Shown one piece after another: positions 1,227 through 33,617 of a DNA stretch of 36,740 nucleotides. Numbering within the stretch: the stretch's first letter is position 1; each line of letters starts with the position of its first letter. This DNA comes from an uncultured Candidatus Saccharibacteria bacterium (GTDB lineage: Bacteria; Patescibacteriota; Minisyncoccia; JAHISW01; Tagabacteraceae), in NCBI GenBank assembly GCA_964590835.1, contig CAZPYD010000001.1:1-36740 (forward strand). Direction: 5' to 3'. The translations under genes were made by a program, and so were the position numbers. Below the pieces are notes generated by a model. That model saw nothing but the letters and a program-made list of their open reading frames with translations, searched no databases and was not told where the DNA came from.

Positions 1227-2393
1227 TTATATCTTCCCTGTTTTTATTTTCTCGCGGATTTGGGCCACGTAGTTGCTAAAAAAGTGTAGGTTGTGGAAAG
1301 TAAGCAAGCTCATGGCGTTTATCTCGCCTGCTTTGAATAAATGGCAAACATAATTGCGACCGTAGTTTTGGCACACAAAGCAGTCGCACTTACTATCTAG
1401 TGGTTTTTTGTCTTTTAAGAATTTGGTCTGGCGCATATTTATTCTTCCCTTATTTGTATAAGCGAGGCCTCTGCGCGCATGGTGTGTTGGTACTATACAG
1501 TCAAAAGTATCTACTCCGTTTTTGATAATAAATTCCATATCTTCTAGGTAGCCTATTCCCAAGAGATGTCTTGGTTTGCTTTCGTCTAGGTTATCAAAAG
1601 ACCAGTTTAAAATTTCTTGGGTTTCTCGCTTGTTTGTTCCCATATCGCCGCCTATCCCAAATCCATCAAAAGGAAGCGAGTTAATAAACTTGGCGCTTTC
1701 CATTCGCAAATCTTTAAAGCACGAGCCTTGCACAATTCCATATAATGCCTGGTCGGGGTTCTTTTTCTTAGCTTTTATGCATATTTCTGCCCATTTATGA
1801 GTTCTTTCTAGGGACTTTTTCATATATTCTTTGTTTGCAAGTGGTGAGGTGCATTCGTCAAAGGCAAAAATAATATCAGCACCTATTTTCTCTTGGATTT
1901 TTATAGATTCTTTTGGGCCTAAAAAAATCTTGTCACCATTTATGGGTGAGCGAAACCAGACACCTTTATCAGTAATCTTAATAGACTTTGGCTGCTGCCC
2001 CTTCTTTATTTTTTTCTCAACTATCGAGGTTGGACCTCGATAGTTGGAGTTGGGTTTTAGGATTTTGCCTACTCCCAGGTCTTGGCCAAACCCCAAGCTA
2101 AATACCTGAAAGCCACCAGAGTCTGTCATGGTTGGCTTGTCCCAGTTCATAAACTTGTGTATTCCGCCTGATTTTTTTAGCACATTTTCACCCGGCTTAA
2201 GGTGCAAATGAAAGGTGTTAGAGATAAGTAGCTGGCTGCCGGTTTTTTTAACTAGCTCTGTCGGCAAAGCCTTAATGGTGGCCTGCGTAGCCACAGGCAC
2301 AAAAGCCGGTGTGCGTACAACACCGTGTGAGGTTTTGAGAAGACCCAGTCTGGCCTTACTCTTCTTTGATTTCTTTAAAATTTTGAATTCCAT
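1227..2393 (-). CDS. tgt: tRNA-guanine transglycosylase
   Basis: Motifs ARLG..T.HG...TPAF.PVAT, NTFHL, TDSGGFQVFSL, FDEC, GIVQG, RHLLGIG, DTFDC..PT, Zn site CDCFVC...H, HNL. Confidence 0.97.
   Translation of the reverse strand: MEFKILKKSKKSKARLGLLKTSHGVVRTPAFVPVATQATIKALPTELVKKTGSQLLISNTFHLHLKPGENVLKKSGGIHKFMNWDKPTMTDSGGFQVFSLGFGQDLGVGKILKPNSNYRGPTSIVEKKIKKGQQPKSIKITDKGVWFRSPINGDKIFLGPKESIKIQEKIGADIIFAFDECTSPLANKEYMKKSLERTHKWAEICIKAKKKNPDQALYGIVQGSCFKDLRMESAKFINSLPFDGFGIGGDMGTNKRETQEILNWSFDNLDESKPRHLLGIGYLEDMEFIIKNGVDTFDCIVPTHHARRGLAYTNKGRINMRQTKFLKDKKPLDSKCDCFVCQNYGRNYVCHLFKAGEINAMSLLTFHNLHFFSNYVAQIREKIKTGKI
2018..2046. repeat. Perfect REP-like hairpin inside tgt (encodes NYRGPTSIV)
   Basis: CAACTATCGAGGT-TGG-ACCTCGATAGTTG, 13-bp perfect stem; core GAGGTCCAACCTC shared with 32615-32637. 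Confidence 0.85.
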
Positions 2394-24522: not shown

Positions 24523-24605
24523 TGTCCTTCTCCTTCCCGCCAAAGGCGGATAAATTTCAAGGTTAATATTTCTAAATAAAAAATAATACAAAAACTTATT
24601 CTAGT

Positions 24606-24632
24606 CAAACGCCTCACCTGGTGAGGTGTTTG
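24606..24632. repeat. REP-like hairpin of a different family next to the transposase
   Basis: CAAACGCCTCAC-CTG-GTGAGGTGTTTG. Confidence 0.7.
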
Positions 24633-24650
24633 GATTTTGGTGACGATATC

Positions 24651-24687
24651 AATTATTTACTCGAAGCGACGCTTCGAGTAAATAATT
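24651..24687. repeat. REP hairpin abutting the transposase stop codon
   Basis: AATTATTTACTCGAAGC-GAC-GCTTCGAGTAAATAATT, perfect 17-bp stem. Confidence 0.93.
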
Positions 24688-25386
24688 TTAAATAAGTAGG
24701 TTTATTTTTCCCCTATCTACCTCCGACCAATTTTTTAAAAAAAACTCATAATCTTTTCCATTTTTAAATTGATCGGTAATTATTTTTATTCCCGATAGTA
24801 TCCAATCATCATAATCACTATATAAAAAACTTTTCAAGCTAGACCATGGGTATTTTAACAACTCCCTCTTTTTTTGATTCCAGTTTTTTAAATTTCCGGT
24901 TCTCCAGTCTTTGCTATCAAGAAAATCTAAAGGATTTAAATGAATATACAAAGAAAGATGAAGTAAATACTGATTTGAATCGATATGTTTTGCTTTAAAA
25001 GGCCCATCAAATAGCGGACCTTTTCTACCTTTTTTTATATTTACGTATTTGGAAATCGAAGTATTGCATTTTTGCAAAAACTCAGAAATACCTCCTTCTC
25101 TTAATTCTTTTAATAAAAGGTGGTAATGGTCGGGCATAATCGCATAAGCAATTACATCAACAAGCTTATCTCCATTCCATGCAATTTCTGCGCTTCTTGC
25201 AAGAGTAGCTTTGTTATAAACCCTTAAATAATCAAAGGCTTTTGTAGATTCTGTTGAATTTGCCAATAGGAAACAATTTGCAAGTTTTTGTGCATTTTCA
25301 AAGTCATCAAATTCTGGGAGGCTTAAGATAATCCTACTATAAACATGATAATATTCTCCTGGGAAAAACGTTTCTTTTCTTTGCAT
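24688..25386 (-). mobile_element. REP-associated tyrosine transposase (RAYT, Y1 HUH family)
   Basis: YYHVYSR, HUH motif AYAIMPDHYHLLL, G.LF.GPFKAK, catalytic YIHLNP, YPWSS; identical REPs on both sides. Confidence 0.92.
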
Positions 25387-25395
25387 AATATATTT

Positions 25396-25426
25396 ATTTT
25401 ACTCGAAGCGACGCTTCGAGTAAAAT
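25396..25426. repeat. REP hairpin just upstream of the transposase start
   Basis: ATTTTACTCGAAGC-GAC-GCTTCGAGTAAAAT; 27-bp core identical to 24651-24687, same orientation. Confidence 0.93.
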
Positions 25427-25431
25427 CGTTT

Positions 25432-25460
25432 TTGACAGCACGGGGACAACAAATTAAAAT
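25432..25460 (+). promoter_or_regulatory. sigma70 promoter of dprA (leaderless geometry)
   Basis: TTGACA-17 nt-TAAAAT, 7 nt before ATG 25468. Confidence 0.8.
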
Positions 25461-25467
25461 ATACTTA

Positions 25468-26523
25468 ATGAAGGATGAAGAAAAAATTTTTGCCAATGCT
25501 TTAAATCAAGCTCCTCAATTGGGACCTGTTAGCTTGGGTAATCTCAAAAAATATTTTGGCAGCTTTAAGAAAGCCTGGTCTGCCTCTTTTGATAAGCTGC
25601 AAAAAGTTAGCGGCGCGAGAGACCTTTTTGAATTTAGACAAAACATAGATCCTGAAAAAAAAATTGAAAAACTTCAAAAAGAAAATATAAAAATATTATT
25701 AAAAGAAGAGTTGCCTTATTTTTTACAAGAGATTTATACCCCGCCAGAAATTTTATATGTAAAAGGTGAATTACCAAATGAAAATTTGAATCATCTAGCA
25801 GTGGTTGGTCCACGAAAATTCTCTACTTATGGCAAAGAGGCTTGCCAAAAAATAATAAATGGGTTAAAAGAACATAATGTGGTAATAGTAAGTGGCTTGG
25901 CTGCAGGTATAGATACCATCGCCCATATTGCCGCACTTGAAAATAACTTACAAACAATTGCTGTTTTGGGACACGGTCTAGATCCCCGAGTTTTATTCCC
26001 GCAAGACAACATGCAGCTTGCTGACAAAATAACAAAAAACGGATGTGTAATTTCTGAATATAGTTATTCTACAAGGGCTACAAAGTTTACTTTTCCGCAA
26101 AGAAACAGAATAGCCGCAGGTCTGTCGCAAGGCACTTTGGTAATAGAAGCGCCAGAAAGAAGCGGATCTTTAATTACCGCCACCATGGCTCTTGAAAGCA
26201 ATCGTGAAGTATTTGCAGTTCCGAATAATATTTTTTCAAAAAATTCCGAAGGAACAAATAAATTATTAAAAGAAGGGGCTGTGCCTGTGACAGAACCAGA
26301 AGACATTCTTAAAACTTTTGGAATAGATATTGAATCCAAACCCCAAAATATTGTTTTAAGTGAAACAGAGCAAAAAATAATTTCTTTTCTTGATGAGCCA
26401 ATAGAAAGAGACGAGCTGATAAGAAAATCCGGCATGCAGCCTCAAGAAATTAATCCACAATTAATACAAATGCAAATAAAAGGTATTATAAAGGAGATAG
26501 ATGGTAAAATTTATCAAGTTTAA
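25468..26523 (+). CDS. dprA: DNA-processing protein DprA (start corrected to 25468)
   Basis: LAVVGPRK.STYG, IVSGLAAGIDTIAH, FPQRNRIAAGLS, EAPERSGSLITA, REVFAVP, C-terminal winged helix. Confidence 0.96.
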   Translation: MKDEEKIFANALNQAPQLGPVSLGNLKKYFGSFKKAWSASFDKLQKVSGARDLFEFRQNIDPEKKIEKLQKENIKILLKEELPYFLQEIYTPPEILYVKGELPNENLNHLAVVGPRKFSTYGKEACQKIINGLKEHNVVIVSGLAAGIDTIAHIAALENNLQTIAVLGHGLDPRVLFPQDNMQLADKITKNGCVISEYSYSTRATKFTFPQRNRIAAGLSQGTLVIEAPERSGSLITATMALESNREVFAVPNNIFSKNSEGTNKLLKEGAVPVTEPEDILKTFGIDIESKPQNIVLSETEQKIISFLDEPIERDELIRKSGMQPQEINPQLIQMQIKGIIKEIDGKIYQV

Positions 26524-26532
26524 TGAAAACAA

Positions 26533-26624
26533 TGCGATACCAATATACGAATGCATGCTAATAATACTAATACTTAAATTCGTATCTATTAGTATCATTA
26601 GTAAAATTAGTATATTAGTATCGA
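26533..26624. repeat. ATACTAAT-unit foldback repeat, copy A (upstream of topA)
   Basis: ATACNAAT units then ATTNGTAT units; reverse-complement match to 30026-30151. Confidence 0.8.
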
Positions 26625-26637
26625 GTAATTAGTTAAT

Positions 26638-28755
26638 ATGAATTTAGTTATCGTAGAGTCACCAACAAAAGCCAAAACAATCCAACGCTTTCTTGGAGAT
26701 GATTTTCAAATTGAATCTAGCTTTGGGCATATGCGAGATTTACCCAAAGGAGATTTGGGTATTGATACGGAAGGTAATTTTGAGCCTCGCTATGTTATCC
26801 CGAAGAAATCACAAAAAAAAGTTACAGCACTAAAAAAGATAGCTCAAAAAGCAGATAAAATTATACTAGCAACCGATGAAGACCGTGAAGGAGAAGCCAT
26901 TGCCTGGCATCTTATCCATGCCCTTAAACTAAAAGAAGATGGAAACAAAGATAAAAAAATAGAGCGTATTGTTTTTCATGAAATTACAAAAGGCGCGATA
27001 AAAGAGGCTCTTAAAAATCCTCGCGAGGTAGATATGGATCTTGTGGATGCGCAACAAGCCCGCAGAATACTAGATAGGCTTGTGGGCTACAAGCTATCCC
27101 CTTTCTTGTGGAAAAAACTAATGCGAGGACTTTCTGCTGGACGCGTACAATCTGTAGCCCTTCGCCTAATTGTTGACCGTGAAAACGAAATTCGGGCATT
27201 TAAGCCAGATGACTACTGGACTATTTCTGCCACCTTCGATTCTCCAAAAGATGAACTTTATTCTGATTTAGTAAAAATAAACGACAAGACCATCCCTAAA
27301 CCAGGCATAATGGATAAAAATGAAGTAGATAAAATAATTAAAGAATCTCAAAAAGGCAAATGGAAAATAGAATCTATCGTAAAAAAGGAAAGGAAACAAC
27401 ATCCTAAGCCACCATTTACAACCAGCTCGTTACAGCAAGAGTCTTGGCAAAAACTAAGATTTTCAGCCAAAAAAACAATGATGATAGCGCAACAGCTATA
27501 CGAAGGTATAAACCTAAAAAAAGAAGGTGGTGCAACCGGTCTTATTACCTACATGAGAACAGACTCATTAAATGTATCGGAGAGTGCTTTAAAATCTGCA
27601 AACAGTTATCTAATAAGTAACTTAGGAGAAAAATACAGTCTAGCTCAACCTCGTCGCTTTAAGACTAAATCTAAAGGCGCACAGGAGGCTCACGAAGCTA
27701 TCAGACCATCTAAGCCGGAATTATCTCCTGAATCAATCAAGAGCGAACTTAAAACAGATCAATACAAACTATATAGCCTGATTTGGAAAAGGTTTATGGC
27801 CAGCCAAATGCCAGAAGCTATCTTTGATAACACTACCGTAAACATAAATGTAGCTCATGAAAAAAATAATTATTTATATCGCGCAAAAGGTTCTATTCTA
27901 AAATTCGATGGTTTCTTAAAAATTTATGAAATGGCAGTAGAAGAAAAGACTTTACCAGATCTTTCTGAAAAAGATAAGGTGGCAGCAAAAGAAATAAAAT
28001 CCGAAGCACATCAAACTCAACCACCAGCGCGATACAATGATGCTTCCATAGTTAAAACTCTAGAAAAGCACGAGATTGGTAGACCCTCTACTTATGCGCA
28101 AATTATTTCTACTATCTTGGCGCGCAATTATATAGAAAAAGACGAAGCAAAAAGATTTATACCAACAGAAATTGGTGAAAAAGTTAATACTATTTTAGTT
28201 GAACATTTTCCTCAAATAGTGGATATAAACTTTACAGCCAAAATGGAAGATGATCTTGATAAAATTGCAGAAGGTAAAGCAGAATATCCACCAATAATAA
28301 AAGATTTTTATGAACCGTTTGAAAAGAATCTTGAAGAAAAATACGAGACAGTAGAAAAAGAAGACTTAACAGAAGAAACAGACGAGGTTTGCGAAAAATG
28401 TGGCAAACCAATGGTTATCAAACACGGCCGCTTTGGCAAGTTTATAGCTTGCACTGGATTCCCGGATTGTAAAACAACAAAACAGCTTCCCGCTAAATCT
28501 TTAGGTATCAAATGCCCGCTTTGTAAGACAAGCTTGCCCGCCAAAACCTCAACAAAGGAGGGCGATGTGATTGAGAGAAAAACTAAAAAAGGTAGAATGT
28601 TTTATGGCTGCTCTGAGTGGCCAAAATGTAAATTTGCCACATGGCAAAAGCCCACTGGCGAACTATGTCCTGACTGTCAGTCCCCCACAGTAGAACTCAA
28701 AAATAGTATCAAGTGCTCCAATAAAACCTGCACTTATAAAGTAGAAAAAGAATAA
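26638..28755 (+). CDS. topA: DNA topoisomerase I
   Basis: LVIVESPTKAKTI, ATDEDREGEAI, SAGRVQS, ITYMRTDS, GRPSTYA, C-terminal Zn ribbons. Confidence 0.98.
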   Translation: MNLVIVESPTKAKTIQRFLGDDFQIESSFGHMRDLPKGDLGIDTEGNFEPRYVIPKKSQKKVTALKKIAQKADKIILATDEDREGEAIAWHLIHALKLKEDGNKDKKIERIVFHEITKGAIKEALKNPREVDMDLVDAQQARRILDRLVGYKLSPFLWKKLMRGLSAGRVQSVALRLIVDRENEIRAFKPDDYWTISATFDSPKDELYSDLVKINDKTIPKPGIMDKNEVDKIIKESQKGKWKIESIVKKERKQHPKPPFTTSSLQQESWQKLRFSAKKTMMIAQQLYEGINLKKEGGATGLITYMRTDSLNVSESALKSANSYLISNLGEKYSLAQPRRFKTKSKGAQEAHEAIRPSKPELSPESIKSELKTDQYKLYSLIWKRFMASQMPEAIFDNTTVNINVAHEKNNYLYRAKGSILKFDGFLKIYEMAVEEKTLPDLSEKDKVAAKEIKSEAHQTQPPARYNDASIVKTLEKHEIGRPSTYAQIISTILARNYIEKDEAKRFIPTEIGEKVNTILVEHFPQIVDINFTAKMEDDLDKIAEGKAEYPPIIKDFYEPFEKNLEEKYETVEKEDLTEETDEVCEKCGKPMVIKHGRFGKFIACTGFPDCKTTKQLPAKSLGIKCPLCKTSLPAKTSTKEGDVIERKTKKGRMFYGCSEWPKCKFATWQKPTGELCPDCQSPTVELKNSIKCSNKTCTYKVEKE

Positions 28756-28774
28756 TAAAAAACTTATTTAAAAA

Positions 28775-30022
28775 CTAGAACATACTAAAAAAATCTGTCT
28801 CTTCGTCGTCTTCTTTCTCTTCTTTTTTCATGTCTTCTGGTTCAGGAGTTGATTTAATTGGTCCTGAGTTTAGCCCGTCATCATGTTTATCGTTTTCTTT
28901 TTCAGTATCGGCAACTATTTGCTCAAACTCAAGTTCTCGCTTAGGTTCTTCTGCTGGATCTTCAGGAATAACTGGTTCAGCTTTTGGTGTAGTATCTTCA
29001 TTAAACTCTACTGTTTTGATAATTTCCTCCGCTTCTTCTTGAAGAGAAGGGGAACTTTCTGGAGTGCAAGTAGTACAACTGGCAAGTCTTATTTCAGGAT
29101 TAGAGTTTGAGATAGATTCTGGCTCCTCATGAGAACAAGTCTCGCATGGTTCTTCCTCTTTTTCGCTACAAGCAACTGCTTCATTCATAGCACCAACTTT
29201 TGCTAAAAAAGCTGCAAACTGATCCTCTGAATCAAACTCAAAAGAAATCTTTTTAGCTGGTCCTTTCTTTTGTACAGAAACTTTTGTTCCCAAAACATTT
29301 GATAATTTTTGTTGAAGTGCTTCAGCCTCTGGATCAACCTGGAGAGGTTTTACTCTTGGAGTTTTGTAGCTTTGAACAATCTCACGAGCCATTTTTTCAG
29401 CATCACGCACAGTCATCTTGGTCATAACAATATCCTTGTAAAGATTCATTTGCTCGTCTTTTTGTTTTTTTAAACTCAAAAGTGGTCTAGTGTGACCTTC
29501 ATTAATAAGACCTTGCCTTAGTCCATCTTTTATTTCGTCTGGTAAGCCCAATAAACGCAATGAATTAGAAACAAACACTCGACTCTTGCCCATCTTAGCC
29601 CCAACCTCATGGTGCCGCATTTTAAAATTATCAATAAGCTGAGCAAAAGCTTCTGCTCTTTCAATTGGGCCCAAGTCTTCTCGTTGCAAATTTTCGATAA
29701 GAGCAAGTTCTAATTTTACTTGTTCTGAAGGATCTTCACGAATAATTACCGGTACTTGCATCAATCCCGCCATTTTAGAGGCTCGCCACCTTCTTTCTCC
29801 GGCAATAAGTTCGTATTCTACCACCGTACCAGTTGGAATATCTTTTTCGTGACGAATAACAATCATTGGCTGCAAAACGCCATATTGCCTAATAGAATCA
29901 GAAAGCTGTTTTAGATGTTCCTCGTTAAATTCACGACGAGGTTGCATTGTGTTGGGTCTAATTTTTTCAACCTCAACAGTAAAAACACCACTTTCTTTTC
30001 TTATTCTTGGTAGATCATTCAT
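28775..30022 (-). CDS. parB: ParB/Spo0J partition protein with long acidic C-terminal tail (start ATG 30022)
   Basis: QPRREF, SIRQYGVLQP, YELIAGERRWRA, LIENLQREDL, HTH GKSR..VSN.LRLL.LP, GH.R.LL. Confidence 0.93.
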   Translation of the reverse strand: MNDLPRIRKESGVFTVEVEKIRPNTMQPRREFNEEHLKQLSDSIRQYGVLQPMIVIRHEKDIPTGTVVEYELIAGERRWRASKMAGLMQVPVIIREDPSEQVKLELALIENLQREDLGPIERAEAFAQLIDNFKMRHHEVGAKMGKSRVFVSNSLRLLGLPDEIKDGLRQGLINEGHTRPLLSLKKQKDEQMNLYKDIVMTKMTVRDAEKMAREIVQSYKTPRVKPLQVDPEAEALQQKLSNVLGTKVSVQKKGPAKKISFEFDSEDQFAAFLAKVGAMNEAVACSEKEEEPCETCSHEEPESISNSNPEIRLASCTTCTPESSPSLQEEAEEIIKTVEFNEDTTPKAEPVIPEDPAEEPKRELEFEQIVADTEKENDKHDDGLNSGPIKSTPEPEDMKKEEKEDDEETDFFSMF

Positions 30023-30025
30023 AAA

Positions 30026-30151
30026 TCGATGCAAATATACTAATTAATACTAATGATACTAATTAAACTGACGCCGAATATACTAATTAACACCAATGAT
30101 ACTAATAATTAAATTCGTATAATTAGTATGCATTAGTATATTGGTATCGCA
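30026..30151. repeat. ATACTAAT-unit foldback repeat, copy B (upstream of parB)
   Basis: Inverted homolog of 26533-26624 with an internal ~29-bp duplication (30035-30063 vs 30078-30106). Confidence 0.8.
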
Positions 30152-30221
30152 CTAACTTTATTATATCTAAATTGACTATCTTGCGCAAATTCACTAATAT
30201 TATAGTATCAAACAAAATATT

Positions 30222-30303
30222 GCCGTCGTGGCGGAATTGGCATACGCGCACGACTCAAAATCGTGTGAGGCAACTCATGTGGGTTCGACTCCCACCGACG
30301 GCA
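30222..30303 (+). tRNA. tRNA-Leu (anticodon CAA), CCA not encoded
   Basis: Acceptor GCCGTCG/CGACGGC, anticodon arm CACGA-CTCAAAA-TCGTG, variable arm TGAG-GCAA-CTCA, GTTCGAC T-loop. Confidence 0.97.
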
Positions 30304-30405
30304 CAAATAAATTAAGCCTCCTTCAGGATGGCTTTATTTTTTTGTGCCGTCTCCCTTCCTCTTTACTTCTCCACCATTCCATGCTTTAGTGGACATAGAA
30401 GAGTT

Positions 30406-30448
30406 TTTTAACATACAAACTCCGCCGAGCGGGGTAAAAAGGAGGTTT
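30406..30448 (+). promoter_or_regulatory. 43-nt leader module, copy 2
   Basis: TTTTAACATACAAACTCCGCCGAGCGGGGTAAAAAGGAGGTTT. Confidence 0.8.
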
Positions 30449-30453
30449 TTAAG

Positions 30454-30761
30454 ATGGGACTTTTTACTAGAGAACAAAACACTGGAACTATTGCCCTTTT
30501 TTCTTTTATTTTGCTTGTTTTTTCATTATGTTTCTTTATTGGTTATTCAAATAAAAATAATTCAATTCCAGTAATCAAAGAAAAAACCAAAGTCTTGTAA
30601 ACAAAATTACTGCTCGAAAAATCTATTATAAAGATCCCCGAGGCGAAAACTTATGTTTTTCTTATCAAGCCAGTGGAACAAGTATTGGCGAAACCTATAT
30701 CCCTTGTTCGGAAATACCAACAAATCTAATTGTTGTTGCAGAGTTACCTAAAAAGAAATAA
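30454..30761 (+). pseudogene. ~102-aa single-TM hypothetical gene frameshifted at or near an A6 tract (30581-30586); not in ORF track
   Basis: AGGAGG plus ATG 30454 gives MGLFTREQNTGTIALFSFILLVFSLCFFIGY... stop 30600; adding one A continues NQSLVNKITARKIYYKDPRGENLCFSY...IPCSEIP...KKK to TAA 30761. Confidence 0.6.
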
Positions 30762-30773
30762 GTAAGCCAATTT

Positions 30774-31004
30774 ATGGAATATAGCTATTTGGATTATTTA
30801 ATTGGCGGATTTTTATTGATTAGTTTTATTTTTATGATTTTTAAAATGGGTCACTGCTCCAAATGCGGCTTTTTTGCGATTAAACGTACTGTGCTAGCCT
30901 TTTCACATGGAGGCACAAAAAAATATAAAGACACATATTTACGCTGCCCGTACTGCAAACACGACGAAAAAATAAAAACAAAAGAAATTACTCCTTTTTT
31001 ATAA
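30774..31004 (+). CDS. Small TM plus zinc-ribbon protein
   Basis: N-terminal TM, CSKC and CPYC. Confidence 0.7.
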   Translation: MEYSYLDYLIGGFLLISFIFMIFKMGHCSKCGFFAIKRTVLAFSHGGTKKYKDTYLRCPYCKHDEKIKTKEITPFL

Positions 31005-31021
31005 TTATTAAACCCAAACAC

Positions 31022-31050
31022 AAAACCCAAGGCGCCAGCCTTGGGTTTTT
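31022..31050. terminator. Bidirectional terminator
   Basis: AAAACCCAAGGC-GCCA-GCCTTGGGTTTT. Confidence 0.8.
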
Positions 31051-31054
31051 ATTT

Positions 31055-31402
31055 TTATACTTCTTTTGCTTCACTTCGATCAATAGAGAAATCATTGGGA
31101 TCAAAGTAGCGACCTCCTGTACCTGTGACAACATCCAAAAGTATCTCATATAATCTGGTATCTTTTTCATAAGCGGCATCCAAAAGATTATCAGATCGAA
31201 CACTATACGGAGCAACTTTTTCAAATTCTTCTGGGGTCATCCCTTCTGTATCTATTTTCATTACTTTTCTGCTTGTCGTATAAATAACAGACCGCACTTT
31301 TCTAGATGCAACCTGAACTTTTAATCCAATTAACTCTTCAAGCTCTTTTCTTACACTATCAAATGCCGGAATATCCGGAACTCCTGTTATTTCTATAATC
31401 AT
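31055..31402 (-). CDS. Hypothetical 115-aa protein
   Basis: GAGGAGG SD; promoter TTTACA-17-TAGATT at 31443-31471. Confidence 0.75.
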   Translation of the reverse strand: MIIEITGVPDIPAFDSVRKELEELIGLKVQVASRKVRSVIYTTSRKVMKIDTEGMTPEEFEKVAPYSVRSDNLLDAAYEKDTRLYEILLDVVTGTGGRYFDPNDFSIDRSEAKEV

Positions 31403-31508
31403 ATCGCCTCCTCTTTTTTTTCAATTTATTCTTTCTTTTAATAATCTACAATAAAACCAGGAAATTGTAAATTGCTTAGTCTTGTGGTATTGTAATGCCA
31501 TAAATAAT

Positions 31509-33617
31509 ATGAGGTATTTTATTTTTACATACGGTTGTGCCACTAATCATGCTGATTCTGAAAGGATTGCGCGCAAGCTAGATATGGATGGGTATGAACA
31601 ATCTTCTTCTGAAAAAGAAGCTGATTTGATAGTGCTTAATGCCTGTTCTGTAAGAAAATCTGCAATGGATAGAGTGTTTAGCAAGGCACATAAATATAAG
31701 AAAAACCCAAATAAAAAAGTTATTCTATGCGGTTGCGTACTAGACAATGAAAAGAAAAAATTTGAAGAAAAGGTGGACGAAATCTGGCACCCAGACGAAT
31801 ATTTTGATTTGGCTCCTGCTTATTCCAGCGAATTTACTGCATATATTCCTATCACCAAAGGCTGTGATAATTTTTGTTCATACTGTGCTGTGCCTTTTAC
31901 TCGCGGCCGCGAAAAATCTCACCCAGCAGGACAAATAGTTAAAGAAGTGAAAACTTTGATTAAAAATGGATATAAAGAAATTTGGCTACTTGGTCAAAAT
32001 GTAAACTCATATAATTCTCGTGGAATAGACTTTCCAGGTCTGCTTAAAAAAATAAACCAGCTTGAAGGCAAATTCTGGATACGCTTTACTTCCCCACATC
32101 CAAAAGACTTTTCAAACGAATTAATAAAAATAATCAAAACTTGCAACAAAGTTACTAAATATATCAACCTACCTGTTCAATCCGGCAACAACGAAATTCT
32201 TAAGAAAATGAATCGTCGCTACACCCGCGAACAATACATAAAACTAGTGAACAGAGTAAGAAAACAAATCCCAGATATATCTTTGTCTACTGATACTATC
32301 GTTGGTTTCCCAGGAGAAACAAGGAAGCATTTTTTAAACAGCATAGATTTGTATAAGCAGCTTAAATTTGATATGGCATTTATTTCTCAATACTCTCCGC
32401 GCCCAGGGACACTTTCTGCCACAACAATGAAAGACAATATCCCAAAAACAGAAAAAGTAAGACGAGACACACAACTAACAAATGTCCTTAAAAAAACAGC
32501 TTTGGAAAATAACAAAAAGCTAGTTGGGCAAACAGTGGAAGTTTTGATTGATAGCAAAACGGACAATAAATTATTGGGCCGTACAAACACCAACAAACTC
32601 ACCGAAATCCCTTCTGTTGGAGGTCCAACCTCCAACATTGGGAGGTTTGTTGAGGTGAAGATTGTTAAGGCTGAGCCATGGAAGCTGATTGGTGAATTGG
32701 CCCCTCAGAAGATAATTGCTGTTTTGGGGCCAACATCTTCTGGGAAGAGTGACTTAGCTGTGTTGATAGCGCAAAAATTTGGCAACATGGAAATAATTTC
32801 TGCTGACTCTAGACAGGTATACAAAAACATCCCTATCGGCACAGGTGCGGTAACCAAAAAAGAAATGGGCGGCATTAATCACCACTTGCTTAATTTTGTT
32901 AATCCTAAAAAAGTCTACACAGGAGGAGACTTTAAGAAAGATGCCGAGAAAGCTATTGATGAAATAATAGCAAAAAATAAACTACCGATTGTTTGCGGTG
33001 GTACTGGCTTTTATATAGATATACTCCTAAGTGGCAAAAATATACCGCAAGTAGAACCAGACTGGACACTACGTAAAAAACTAGATAAAAAAACCGCAGA
33101 AGAATTATTTAAAATTCTCAAAAAACTAAACTCTACTCGCGCCAAAAACATAGATCCAAAAAACAAACGCCGCCTTATCCGCGCAATAGAAATCGCAAAA
33201 CACACAAAAAATAAATTAGCATCGAAGCGAGGCTTCGACGCTAAGAGGAGATATGAGGTTTTGTATTTAGGGATTAAGCGAGACGAAAAAGAACTAAAAA
33301 AACTTATCGAAAAGCGCATTAAAAAAATGCTCCAGGTGGGCCTAATAAAAGAAGTAAAAGATCTAAAAGCCTCTGGTGTAAGCTGGAAAAGGATAAACGA
33401 ACTGGGGTTTGAATACAAATACCCTGTGCAATTTATCCGTGGAGAAATAACCAAGGAAGAAATGATAGAGCGAATGCTCATAGAAAACTATCAGTACGCC
33501 AAACGCCAAATGACCTGGTTTAAAAAGTATGCACCAGAAACTCATTGGGTAAAAAGAAAAAAAGCGGTCAGCATCGACGGCCAACCAGTTTTAAAACTCG
33601 TCAAAAAGTTTTTGTAA
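31509..33617 (+). CDS. miaB-miaA: Fused MiaB (radical-SAM methylthiotransferase) and MiaA (tRNA dimethylallyltransferase)
   Basis: MiaB: TYGC..N..DSE, NACSVR, GCDNFCSYC, LLGQNVNSY, IVGFPGET, YSPRPGT, TRAM; in frame into MiaA: GPTSSGKS, ISADSRQVY, GGTGFY, RR.IRAIE, YAKRQMTWFK. Confidence 0.93.
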   Translation: MRYFIFTYGCATNHADSERIARKLDMDGYEQSSSEKEADLIVLNACSVRKSAMDRVFSKAHKYKKNPNKKVILCGCVLDNEKKKFEEKVDEIWHPDEYFDLAPAYSSEFTAYIPITKGCDNFCSYCAVPFTRGREKSHPAGQIVKEVKTLIKNGYKEIWLLGQNVNSYNSRGIDFPGLLKKINQLEGKFWIRFTSPHPKDFSNELIKIIKTCNKVTKYINLPVQSGNNEILKKMNRRYTREQYIKLVNRVRKQIPDISLSTDTIVGFPGETRKHFLNSIDLYKQLKFDMAFISQYSPRPGTLSATTMKDNIPKTEKVRRDTQLTNVLKKTALENNKKLVGQTVEVLIDSKTDNKLLGRTNTNKLTEIPSVGGPTSNIGRFVEVKIVKAEPWKLIGELAPQKIIAVLGPTSSGKSDLAVLIAQKFGNMEIISADSRQVYKNIPIGTGAVTKKEMGGINHHLLNFVNPKKVYTGGDFKKDAEKAIDEIIAKNKLPIVCGGTGFYIDILLSGKNIPQVEPDWTLRKKLDKKTAEELFKILKKLNSTRAKNIDPKNKRRLIRAIEIAKHTKNKLASKRGFDAKRRYEVLYLGIKRDEKELKKLIEKRIKKMLQVGLIKEVKDLKASGVSWKRINELGFEYKYPVQFIRGEITKEEMIERMLIENYQYAKRQMTWFKKYAPETHWVKRKKAVSIDGQPVLKLVKKFL
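32615..32637. repeat. Perfect REP-like hairpin in the MiaB TRAM domain (VGGPTSN)
   Basis: TGTTGGAGGT-CCA-ACCTCCAACA. Confidence 0.85.
33216..33244. repeat. Copy of the transposase-flanking REP inside the MiaA domain (LASKRGFDAK)
   Basis: TTAGCATCGAAGC-GAG-GCTTCGACGCTAA; core TCGAAGC-GAN-GCTTCGA matches 24651 and 25396. Confidence 0.85.

What the first reader, a model, noticed from the sequence alone, without database searches (positions are those of the whole stretch)
24651..33244. RAYT-REP system whose REP has landed in frame inside a conserved enzyme
Seen: an intact HUH/Y1 transposase is tightly bracketed by identical 27-bp hairpins TTTACTCGAAGC-GAC-GCTTCGAGTAAA in direct orientation, one touching the stop codon and one ~10 nt from the ATG. 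A third copy with the same core (TCGAAGC-GAG-GCTTCGA) but a different self-complementary outer stem lies in the MiaA coding region and adds LASKRGFDAK. Known: characterised proteobacterial RAYT REPs start with a GTAG/CGTC-type tetranucleotide and are extragenic; coding palindromic insertions are known from Rickettsia RPEs without an identified mobiliser. Inference: a RAYT lineage with symmetric, GTAG-less REPs that are also intragenic, giving a candidate mobiliser for peptide-inserting micro-elements.
Basis: partly seen in the sequence, partly recalled or inferred. Interest (0 to 1): 0.85.

Follow-up and report, generated by a model that had tools for sequence, protein, structure and literature searches.

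The report
Transposase-linked hairpin repeats inside genes
A tiny marine Patescibacteria genome carries hairpin-flanked single-strand-DNA transposase genes whose short palindromes are also scattered through the genome, about a third of them read in frame inside conserved enzymes: a known kind of element in an unusually coding-tolerant form.

Summary
Two identical 27-nt hairpins bracket an HUH/Y1 gene (24688-25386, minus strand). A third hairpin with the same 7-bp core sits in frame in the MiaA half of a MiaB-MiaA fusion gene.

It is one case of a genome-wide system. The 0.70-Mb genome has four such genes, each bracketed by its own triloop palindrome. I compiled 44 hairpin copies in about seven families. 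Fifteen lie in frame in 13 conserved genes, including two more in this window, in Tgt and in the MiaB TRAM domain.

The protein folds like the E. coli REP-associated transposase, 4er8. It misses NCBIfam's cut-off for that family and its hairpins lack GTAG.

The MiaA hairpin is not a clean 10-residue addition. The loop is only 3-4 residues longer than usual. Sister genera carry related or different hairpins at the same spot: the outer stem is kept and the 6-bp tip plus loop is changed to that genome's abundant type.

Intragenic REPs and REP-flanked transposase genes are already published (PMC3733652, PMC6006769). I therefore rate this a new variant of a known kind. The novel part is hairpin turnover at fixed coding loops.

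The parts
24688..25386 (-). HUH/Y1 transposase-like gene (232 aa), class-2 TnpA-Y1 / RAYT-like
   Evidence: Pfam Y1_Tnp scores 23.1 bits against a cut-off of 23. NCBIfam REP_Tyr_transpos scores 38.8 bits against a cut-off of 80. H87, H89 and Y147 are invariant in 27 aligned sequences. The AF2 model has pLDDT 91.8; the best PDB match is 4er8_A, the E. coli RAYT-REP complex, at E 1.8e-6.
24651..24687 (+). Downstream flanking hairpin, 17-bp stem and triloop, abutting the stop codon
25396..25426 (+). Upstream flanking hairpin, 14-bp stem and triloop, 9 nt from the ATG. Its arms also read as -35/-10-like hexamers on both strands.
33216..33244 (+). Intragenic hairpin of the same apex family (CGAAGC-GAG-GCTTCG) in the MiaA half of the fusion gene; reads LASKRGFDAK
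   Evidence: The same 15-mer apex occurs at three other loci of the genome. An orthologous hairpin is present in G002 and G007.
31482..33617 (+). MiaB-MiaA fusion gene, host of two hairpins (an ATG at 31509 is an alternative start)
   Evidence: Pfam UPF0004, Radical_SAM, TRAM and IPPT; NCBIfam MiaB and MiaA equivalogs
32615..32637 (+). Second intragenic hairpin (10-bp stem, loop CCA) in the TRAM domain of the MiaB half; reads SVGGPTSNI
   Evidence: The loop is 3 residues longer than in PDB 7mjv.
2018..2046 (+). Intragenic hairpin (13-bp stem) of family E in the tRNA-guanine transglycosylase gene (1227-2393, minus strand); reads SNYRGPTSIVE
   Evidence: The same peptide is found in TruB and in an LTD protein. 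The loop is 6 residues longer than in the five closest relatives.

Best explanation
The window holds one of four REPtron-like units of a Patescibacteria genome. Each unit is a class-2 HUH/Y1 single-strand-DNA transposase homologue (RAYT-like) bracketed by its own near-perfect triloop palindrome.

Inferred mechanism: each enzyme recognises the tip of its hairpin (about 6 bp plus the triloop) when the hairpin extrudes in single-stranded DNA. It then nicks and rejoins there, which copies or rewrites hairpins elsewhere in the genome.

The genome is almost all coding. Surviving copies therefore sit behind genes or in stop-free frames within length-tolerant loops of proteins, where they are translated as 8-11 residues. 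The MiaA hairpin is an old resident copy of the family that belongs to the neighbouring gene's apex class.

Shown here: the anatomy, the fold, the dispersal, the in-frame positions, and the genome-specific apex classes. Inferred: catalysis, strand, cleavage sites, and that the enzyme rather than recombination moves or rewrites the hairpins.
For: 1. Fold and motifs. H-u-H and Y-x-x-x-N-P are invariant in 27 sequences. The model has pLDDT 91.8. The top PDB hit is 4er8_A, a RAYT bound to a REP hairpin, followed by the ISDra2 and IS608 TnpA structures.

2. Architecture is general. All 4 paralogues in the genome are bracketed by their own hairpin. By my reading, 19 of 31 homologous loci have same-family hairpins on both sides, 9 are one-sided or have unlike hairpins, and 3 have none. 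In the close orthologues the upstream hairpin lies 9-15 nt from the start codon.

3. Dispersal. I compiled 44 copies in about 7 families. Exact 15-mer apexes recur at unlinked loci.

4. Coding copies. 15 of the 44 lie in frame in 13 genes identified by Pfam or PDB matches. The same peptide appears in unrelated proteins: NYRGPTSIV in Tgt, TruB and an LTD protein, and NVRSRTPNI in TsaD, U32 and SpoU.

5. Apex classes track the resident genes.
- CGAAGY-N3-RCTTCG: G000 9, G004 22, G002 6, G007 5, G003 0.
- CGAYRT-N3-AYRTCG: G002 19, G007 15, G000 1, G004 2, G005 2.
- The reversed-pattern controls gave 0 in every genome.
- The copies flanking each genome's transposase gene belong to the class that is abundant there.

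6. No Rfam family covers any of the hairpins.
Against: 1. The NCBIfam equivalog for REP-associated tyrosine transposase is missed (38.8 bits against 80), and Pfam is borderline.

2. Copy numbers are 5-9 per family here, not the >100 that is usual for REPs. There is no GTAG or GTGG foot.

3. By motifs (DHYH/NHFH, FD/FQ, YIHLNP, 232 aa) the protein resembles subclass 2.1 of PMC6006769. That paper reports subclass 2.1 without REPs.

4. Simple insertion does not fit the lengths. The net gain is +3-4 residues in MiaA, +3 in MiaB, +6 in Tgt, +2 in SpoU, +4 in TruB and 0 to +1 in the hydrogenase, for elements of 23-31 nt. In the hydrogenase the left arm covers codons that are conserved in hairpin-less orthologues.

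5. No presence/absence polymorphism was seen. Only assembled contigs could be laid, and none skipped a hairpin.

6. No biochemical evidence exists for this lineage.
Confidence: 0.65

Rival explanations
1. The hairpins are host-selected DNA or RNA structures, such as promoters, terminators, or binding sites that organise replication or the nucleoid. The HUH protein is a domesticated hairpin-binding factor. Under this view the coding copies persist because the structure is useful, not because anything moves.
For: The MiaA hairpin is kept at the same place in G000 and G002, with a two-sided change of the loop-closing pair (C-G to T-A) that preserves pairing. The upstream hairpin reads as TTTACT-17-TAAAAT on both strands. 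Several intergenic copies lie just behind genes. The gene's dprA neighbour is shared with G002.
Against: The same 25-31-nt sequences occur in unrelated genes and frames, which requires copying. Different families occupy the same loop in sister genera. A structural function would not need the apex to match the genome's own transposase-flanking hairpins. The dprA neighbour is shared by only 1 of 27 loci examined.
Confidence: 0.15
2. The palindromes arise and are kept perfect by replication template switching (quasi-palindrome correction) and are spread by short-patch gene conversion. The transposase homologue is a passenger.
For: There is little or no net length change at most coding sites. One hairpin arm can be ancestral coding sequence. 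Outer stems are site-specific yet self-complementary.
Against: Conversion needs pre-existing homology and cannot seed new sites. Apex classes match the hairpins that flank the resident transposase paralogues. The bracket architecture is conserved in 19 of 31 loci.
Confidence: 0.12
3. The unit is an ordinary IS200-type insertion sequence: gene plus end hairpins move together, and the solo hairpins are its debris.
For: The gene has sub-terminal hairpins at both ends, it has an HUH/Y1 fold, and some genomes hold several homologues (up to 9 matches).
Against: The four copies in this genome are 26-30% identical to the window's protein in the alignment and 31-40% over the matched parts. Each has a different hairpin. 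The tyrosine motif is Y-x-x-x-N-P, not the Y-x-x-x-Q of IS200 (for the published motif). No tnpB lies beside it; the neighbours are dprA and a short ORF. Solo hairpins are whole palindromes, not gene fragments.
Confidence: 0.05

Closest known systems
E. coli TnpA-REP (RAYT) with its REP/BIME sequences (REPtron; PDB 4er8)
   Same: HUH/Y1 fold; it is the best structural match. The gene is bracketed by cognate hairpins that are also dispersed in the genome. Paralogues within one genome are only distantly related, and each has its own hairpin family.
   Different: No GTAG guide tetranucleotide. The stems are near-perfect with a triloop and no bulge. There are 5-9 copies per family rather than hundreds. 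About a third of the copies are coding. There is an 80-residue C-terminal helical extension. The NCBIfam equivalog cut-off is not reached.
TnpA-Y1 subclass 2.1 of Quentin et al. 2018 (Bertels group 1; TIRYT of Di Nocera et al. 2013)
   Same: Motifs NH[YF]H-like, FQ-like and Y[IV]HLNP; median length 238 aa against 232 aa here (Table 1 of PMC6006769). Bertels et al. report low-copy flanking 16-mers for group 1 (PMC5581495, passages read).
   Different: That subclass is reported without REP-like hairpins near the gene, or with GGGG[AT][CG]A[CG]-type terminal inverted repeats. Here a hairpin pair brackets the gene. Membership was judged from motifs only, not from a tree or the authors' profiles.
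Subclass 2.4 tnpAREP genes with in-frame REPs inside the gene (PMC6006769, section 12)
   Same: Three of the four paralogues here (contigs C7, C13, C15) carry their own hairpin in frame inside the gene.
   Different: Here the insertions lie mostly before the HUH motif (residues about 35-56), with a second site just after the Tyr motif. [quoted passage not shown] The REP type also differs (no GTAG double foot).
Intragenic GTAG/CGTC REPs (Opitutus terrae; Rickettsia conorii RPE-4/6) and Rickettsia palindromic elements
   Same: Short palindromic repeats read in frame inside conserved genes, often in nucleic-acid enzymes (PMC3733652). Some copies here have CGTC/GACG feet.
   Different: Here a cognate transposase-like gene is present for most families. 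The elements are single 23-37-nt hairpins (RPE-1 is far longer, from recall). The genome is 0.7 Mb and free-living or episymbiotic marine, not Rickettsia.
IS200/IS605 insertion sequences (IS608, ISDra2)
   Same: Same enzyme superfamily and hairpin-end logic; second-best structural matches.
   Different: No near-identical gene copies, no tnpB, and a Y-x-x-x-N-P tyrosine motif.

Membership tests
RAYT / TnpA-REP (class 2 TnpA-Y1) | HUH motif and catalytic Tyr in Y-x-x-x-N-P | tested here: met
   H87-Y-H89 and Y147-IHLNP are invariant or nearly so in 27 sequences. The motif definition is from PMC6006769.
RAYT / TnpA-REP (class 2 TnpA-Y1) | Fold of the solved RAYT | tested here: met
   The model has pLDDT 91.8. 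4er8_A ranks first at E 1.8e-6, with TM 0.62 normalised to the target.
RAYT / TnpA-REP (class 2 TnpA-Y1) | Curated profile score (NCBIfam NF047646 equivalog) | tested here: not met
   38.8 bits against a cut-off of 80. Pfam Y1_Tnp scores 23.1 against 23.
RAYT / TnpA-REP (class 2 TnpA-Y1) | Gene flanked by its cognate palindromes (REPtron) | tested here: met
   4 of 4 paralogues in the genome and 19 of 31 homologous loci.
RAYT / TnpA-REP (class 2 TnpA-Y1) | Cognate palindromes dispersed at high copy number, mostly extragenic | tested here: not met
   They are dispersed, but at only 5-9 copies per family. 20 of the 44 copies lie inside ORFs.
RAYT / TnpA-REP (class 2 TnpA-Y1) | GT[AG]G tetranucleotide at the hairpin foot | tested here: not met
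   The flanks and stems printed show no conserved GTAG or GTGG.
RAYT / TnpA-REP (class 2 TnpA-Y1) | Cleavage and rejoining of REP ssDNA | not testable with these tools
   Needs purified protein.
IS200/IS605 | Several near-identical gene-plus-ends copies; Y-x-x-x-Q motif; often tnpB | tested here: not met
   Paralogues are 26-40% identical. The motif is Y-x-x-x-N-P. The neighbours are dprA and a short ORF.
Intragenic REP / RPE-like coding palindromes | Repeat family member read in frame in a conserved gene, absent or different in orthologues | tested here: met
   15 copies in 13 genes. Orthologue loops lack it or carry another hairpin.
Intragenic REP / RPE-like coding palindromes | Clean insertion of the element's full length relative to orthologues | tested here: not met
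   The net gain is 0 to +6 residues at 8 sites. It is +11-12 only in RecG, and there only against relatives that carry other hairpins.

The most novel reading that the evidence does not exclude
The mobile or rewritable unit is not the whole palindrome but its tip, about 6 bp plus a triloop. Each transposase paralogue imposes its own tip on hairpins that already reside in the genome, while the site-specific outer stems stay. Fixed loops of conserved Patescibacteria enzymes (MiaA, TsaD, RecG, TruB, NiFe hydrogenase) would then be hairpin landing pads. Their peptide sequence would be overwritten, without much length change, whenever the genome's transposase repertoire changes. This would be an enzyme-driven source of hypervariable protein loops.
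Probability: 0.3. Interest if true: 0.8.

Novelty: new variant of a known kind. Interest (0 to 1): 0.62.

Why it matters
REP/RAYT systems have been studied almost only in Proteobacteria and Cyanobacteria, where the repeats are numerous and extragenic.

This lineage shows the same logic in a 0.7-Mb genome with almost no intergenic space. The repeats survive by being translated, so a selfish or domesticated DNA system directly shapes loops of core tRNA-modification and DNA-repair enzymes.

The material is well suited to asking what a RAYT-type enzyme does to resident hairpins. It offers lineage-specific apex classes, conserved outer stems at orthologous sites, and four enzyme-hairpin pairs in one small genome. 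It also assigns candidate enzymes to CGTC-footed coding palindromes, which the 2013 survey left without a transposase.

For annotation, it explains odd hypervariable insertions in Patescibacteria proteins and some contig breaks at palindromes.

Tried and rejected
Chance. Rejected: none of 100 shuffles matched the core pattern, and the reversed-pattern controls gave 0 in five genomes.

Known RNA family. An Rfam gathering scan of the window found only two tRNAs.

Intrinsic terminator for the downstream hairpin. No T run follows it on the gene's strand. The scan lists only the upstream hairpin and an unrelated hairpin at 24605-24633 as terminator-like on the + strand.

Sequence match of the protein to solved structures. 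Only E 0.3 to ISDra2 TnpA over the HUH region, so I relied on the fold search instead.

Population evidence for excision or insertion. Runs from 2 studies of marine or seawater metagenomes hold the stretch. They are kept only as assembled contigs. The pieces laid cover the MiaA, MiaB and downstream hairpins with 0 differences, and no listed joint skips a hairpin. This cannot show absence of variants.

Synteny. The dprA neighbour is shared by 1 of 27 homologous loci.

Target-site motif. The 5' flanks are T-rich on the + strand (124 T against 81 A on the 3' side, in 6-nt flanks of 44 copies). I could not link this to loop orientation or gene strand, so it is left unexplained.

Literature. The term pairs and sets returned no paper that describes hairpin-flanked Y1 transposases or coding palindromes in the candidate phyla radiation / Patescibacteria. 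The one preprint holding both terms only mentions a KEGG annotation (passages read). Supplementary tables of PMC3733652 and PMC6006769 were not seen and may list similar cases.

Not done: a tree placing the protein among the published subclasses; a test of identity between the several close copies in G002 and G007; orthologue comparison for U32, ComEC, LTD, S74, RuvX and MBL.

Full report
OBSERVATION

The 7-bp core pattern has three matches in the window, the third at 33222-33238. None of 100 shuffles gave any match.

The two flanking palindromes are longer than reported. One has a 17-bp stem (24651-24687) and touches the stop codon of ORF 24688-25386 (minus strand). The other has a 14-bp stem (25396-25426) and ends 9 nt before its ATG. 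As single-stranded DNA they fold at -15.6 and -13.1 kcal/mol. The third copy folds at -10.1 kcal/mol with 12 pairs and one A.C mismatch. No shuffle of 200 did as well.

The third copy lies in ORF 31482-33617. Pfam and NCBIfam show this ORF to be a MiaB-MiaA fusion. The hairpin reads LASKRGFDAK in frame.

THE PROTEIN

The 232-aa product has HYH at 87-89 and YIHLNP from Tyr147. H87, H89 and Y147 are invariant in an alignment of 24 relatives and the three paralogues of the same genome.

- Pfam Y1_Tnp is borderline: 23.1 bits against a cut-off of 23.
- The NCBIfam equivalog for REP-associated tyrosine transposase is missed: 38.8 bits against 80.
- Sequence search of solved structures gives only E 0.3 to ISDra2 TnpA.
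- An AlphaFold2 model built on the alignment is confident (pLDDT 91.8, pTM 0.88). Its best PDB match is 4er8_A, the E. coli REP-associated transposase bound to a REP hairpin (E 1.8e-6). The ISDra2 and IS608 transposases follow.

Homologues at 56-77% identity are common, and sources name them 'transposase [Patescibacteria group bacterium]'. Named genome records with relatives are Patescibacteria, Paceibacterota, Nomurabacteria and a record labelled Saccharibacteria.

By motifs and length the protein looks like subclass 2.1 of Quentin et al. 2018 (Table 1 in section 15). That is a resemblance, not a tested placement.

THE SYSTEM IN THE GENOME

The window is contig C1 of a 702,910-bp assembly of 40 contigs with 34% G+C. 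The genome has four homologues of the gene, on C1, C7, C13 and C15. The other three are 26-30% identical to the window's protein in the alignment. Each is bracketed by its own palindrome with a 3-nt loop.

From a scan for perfect and one-mismatch hairpins and a short-word BLAST of each family, I compiled 44 copies in about seven families.

| Position of the copy | Copies of 44 |
|---|---|
| Flanking the four transposase genes | 8 |
| In frame inside three of those genes | 5 |
| In frame inside 13 other genes | 15 |
| Intergenic, or in short ORFs without support | 16 |

(Source.)

The 13 host genes are the MiaB-MiaA fusion (two copies), Tgt, RecG, TsaD (two copies), peptidase U32, a SpoU methylase, TruB, RuvX, an MBL-fold hydrolase, ComEC, a NiFe-hydrogenase large subunit, an LTD/PKD protein and an S74/Ig-like protein.

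Copies of one family give the same peptide in unrelated proteins. This can only come from copying of DNA.

The window's family is defined by the apex CGAAGC-GAN-GCTTCG. The exact 15-mer of the MiaA copy recurs at C6:569, C23:8588 and, inverted, at C1:60811. RecG carries a GAA-loop variant.

GENERALITY

23 of 41 related genomes, counting this one, have homologues, with up to 9 matches per genome. Eighteen had no match with this query.

Across 31 loci I read same-family hairpins on both sides of the gene in 19, one-sided or unlike hairpins in 9, and none in 3 (a partial repeat with another tool is). The thresholds were at least 8 pairs, at most one mismatch, loops of 3-5 nt, and a position within 100 nt of the ORF ends or inside the last 15 codons.

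In the close orthologues the upstream hairpin sits 9-15 nt from the start codon.

IS THE MiaA HAIRPIN AN INSERTION?

Against three solved MiaA proteins, the coded residues align with a variable linker without a large gap. Among 30 aligned relatives this linker is usually 3-4 residues shorter than in the query, not 10.

The DNA shows hairpins at the same place in several relatives:
- G002 has a hairpin with the same outer stem and the same A.C mismatch. Its loop-closing pair is changed on both sides and its loop is different. A second, inverted copy follows it.
- G007 has a decayed pair of the same kind.
- G005, G006 and G017 have other inverted repeats there.

So this site has been occupied since before these genera split, or it is hit again and again.

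THE SAME PATTERN AT OTHER SITES

| Site | Net gain in the query |
|---|---|
| MiaB TRAM | +3 residues vs PDB 7mjv |
| Tgt | +6 vs the five closest relatives, +9 vs the shortest |
| SpoU | +2 |
| TruB | +4 |
| NiFe hydrogenase | +1 vs a solved homologue, 0 vs G003 |
| TsaD (two sites) | 0 to +2 |
| RecG | +11-12, but only vs relatives whose short loop is itself a hairpin |

Different perfect hairpins occupy the same loop in sister genera:
- TsaD: G000, G004, G005, G006, G014.
- RecG: G000, G004.
- TruB: G000, G007.
- Hydrogenase: G000, G005, and inverted dimers in G004 and G007.

At MiaA, TruB and TsaD the outer stem is shared between genera, while the tip is of the type that is abundant in each genome. 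These abundances are genome-specific and match the hairpins that flank the resident paralogues. In the hydrogenase, the left arm of the hairpin covers codons that are conserved in orthologues without a hairpin.

A plain cut-and-paste insertion of a 25-31-nt element does not explain these points. Three readings remain open:
1. Replacement or rewriting of resident hairpins.
2. Homology-guided integration.
3. Long residence with concerted evolution.

WHAT IS KNOWN

REP-flanked tyrosine transposase genes (REPtrons), one REP family per paralogue, and REPs inside tnpAREP genes are described in PMC6006769 (outline and sections 12 and 15 read).

Intragenic GTAG and CGTC REPs are described in PMC3733652 (abstract and passages read). 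That paper notes many in replication and repair genes, and it equates the Rickettsia conorii elements RPE-4/6 with CGTC REPs.

Bertels et al. 2017 report low-copy flanking 16-mers for their group 1 (passages read).

My searches found no report of such a system in the candidate phyla radiation.

VERDICT

I read the locus as a REPtron-like unit of a Patescibacteria lineage of class-2 Y1 transposase homologues. Its GTAG-less palindromes are few, are largely tolerated in coding loops, and turn over at fixed sites.

This is a new variant of a known kind. Enzymatic activity, the moving unit and the strand are inferred, not shown. The population data available (contigs only) could not test mobility.

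Noticed in passing
window 31482-33617: MiaB and MiaA, two consecutive enzymes of ms2i6A37 tRNA modification, are fused in one 711-aa ORF. Open frames of 621-706 aa at the MiaA match in G002-G007 and G020 suggest the fusion is kept in the family.
   Followed up: partly
window 25396-25426: The upstream flanking palindrome reads as TTTACT-17-TAAAAT (9 of 12 consensus positions) on both strands, ending 9 nt from the transposase ATG. It could double as a promoter or operator. A stronger TTGACA-17-TAAAAT at 25432-25460 faces dprA.
   Followed up: no
window 24605-24633: An unrelated 13-pair hairpin followed by a T-rich tail, terminator-like on the + strand, lies 55 nt beyond the transposase stop.
   Followed up: no
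G000 contigs C13:18934-19635 and C15:14134-14838 (loci L003, L075): Two paralogues carry two copies each of their own hairpin in frame inside the gene. One copy on C15 has a family-D left arm and a family-E right arm. In relatives the internal copies cluster near residues 35-56.
   Followed up: partly
L142 (G004), L143 (G007), L030 (G002): In relatives, some coding loops hold two hairpins in inverted orientation a few bases apart. These REPIN-like dimers form 21-23-bp mega-palindromes inside the hydrogenase and MiaA genes.
   Followed up: partly
44 hairpin copies of G000: The six bases 5' of many family B, C and E copies are T-rich on the + strand of the contigs (124 T against 81 A on the 3' side). 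This is a possible target preference or part of the element. The strand bias across arbitrarily oriented contigs is unexplained.
   Followed up: partly
window 32613-32639: The MiaB hairpin looks chimeric. Its outer stem resembles family B (the contig C7 gene) and its inner stem and loop resemble families D/E.
   Followed up: no
L129 (G007:C3): A 27-nt hairpin whose 12-bp stem arms are identical to family B of this genome occurs in a different genus. Either the sequence is strongly constrained or the unit was transferred.
   Followed up: no
window 24688, 25455 (table 8): Some public contigs of the same organism begin directly beside the flanking hairpins (X4 record 29 at 24688, X1 record 3 at 25455). 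The palindromes may break short-read assemblies.
   Followed up: no
window 25345-26523 and 26638-28755: The transposase gene lies head to head with dprA, followed by topA. The dprA neighbour is shared with the orthologous locus of G002 only (1 of 27 loci).
   Followed up: partly
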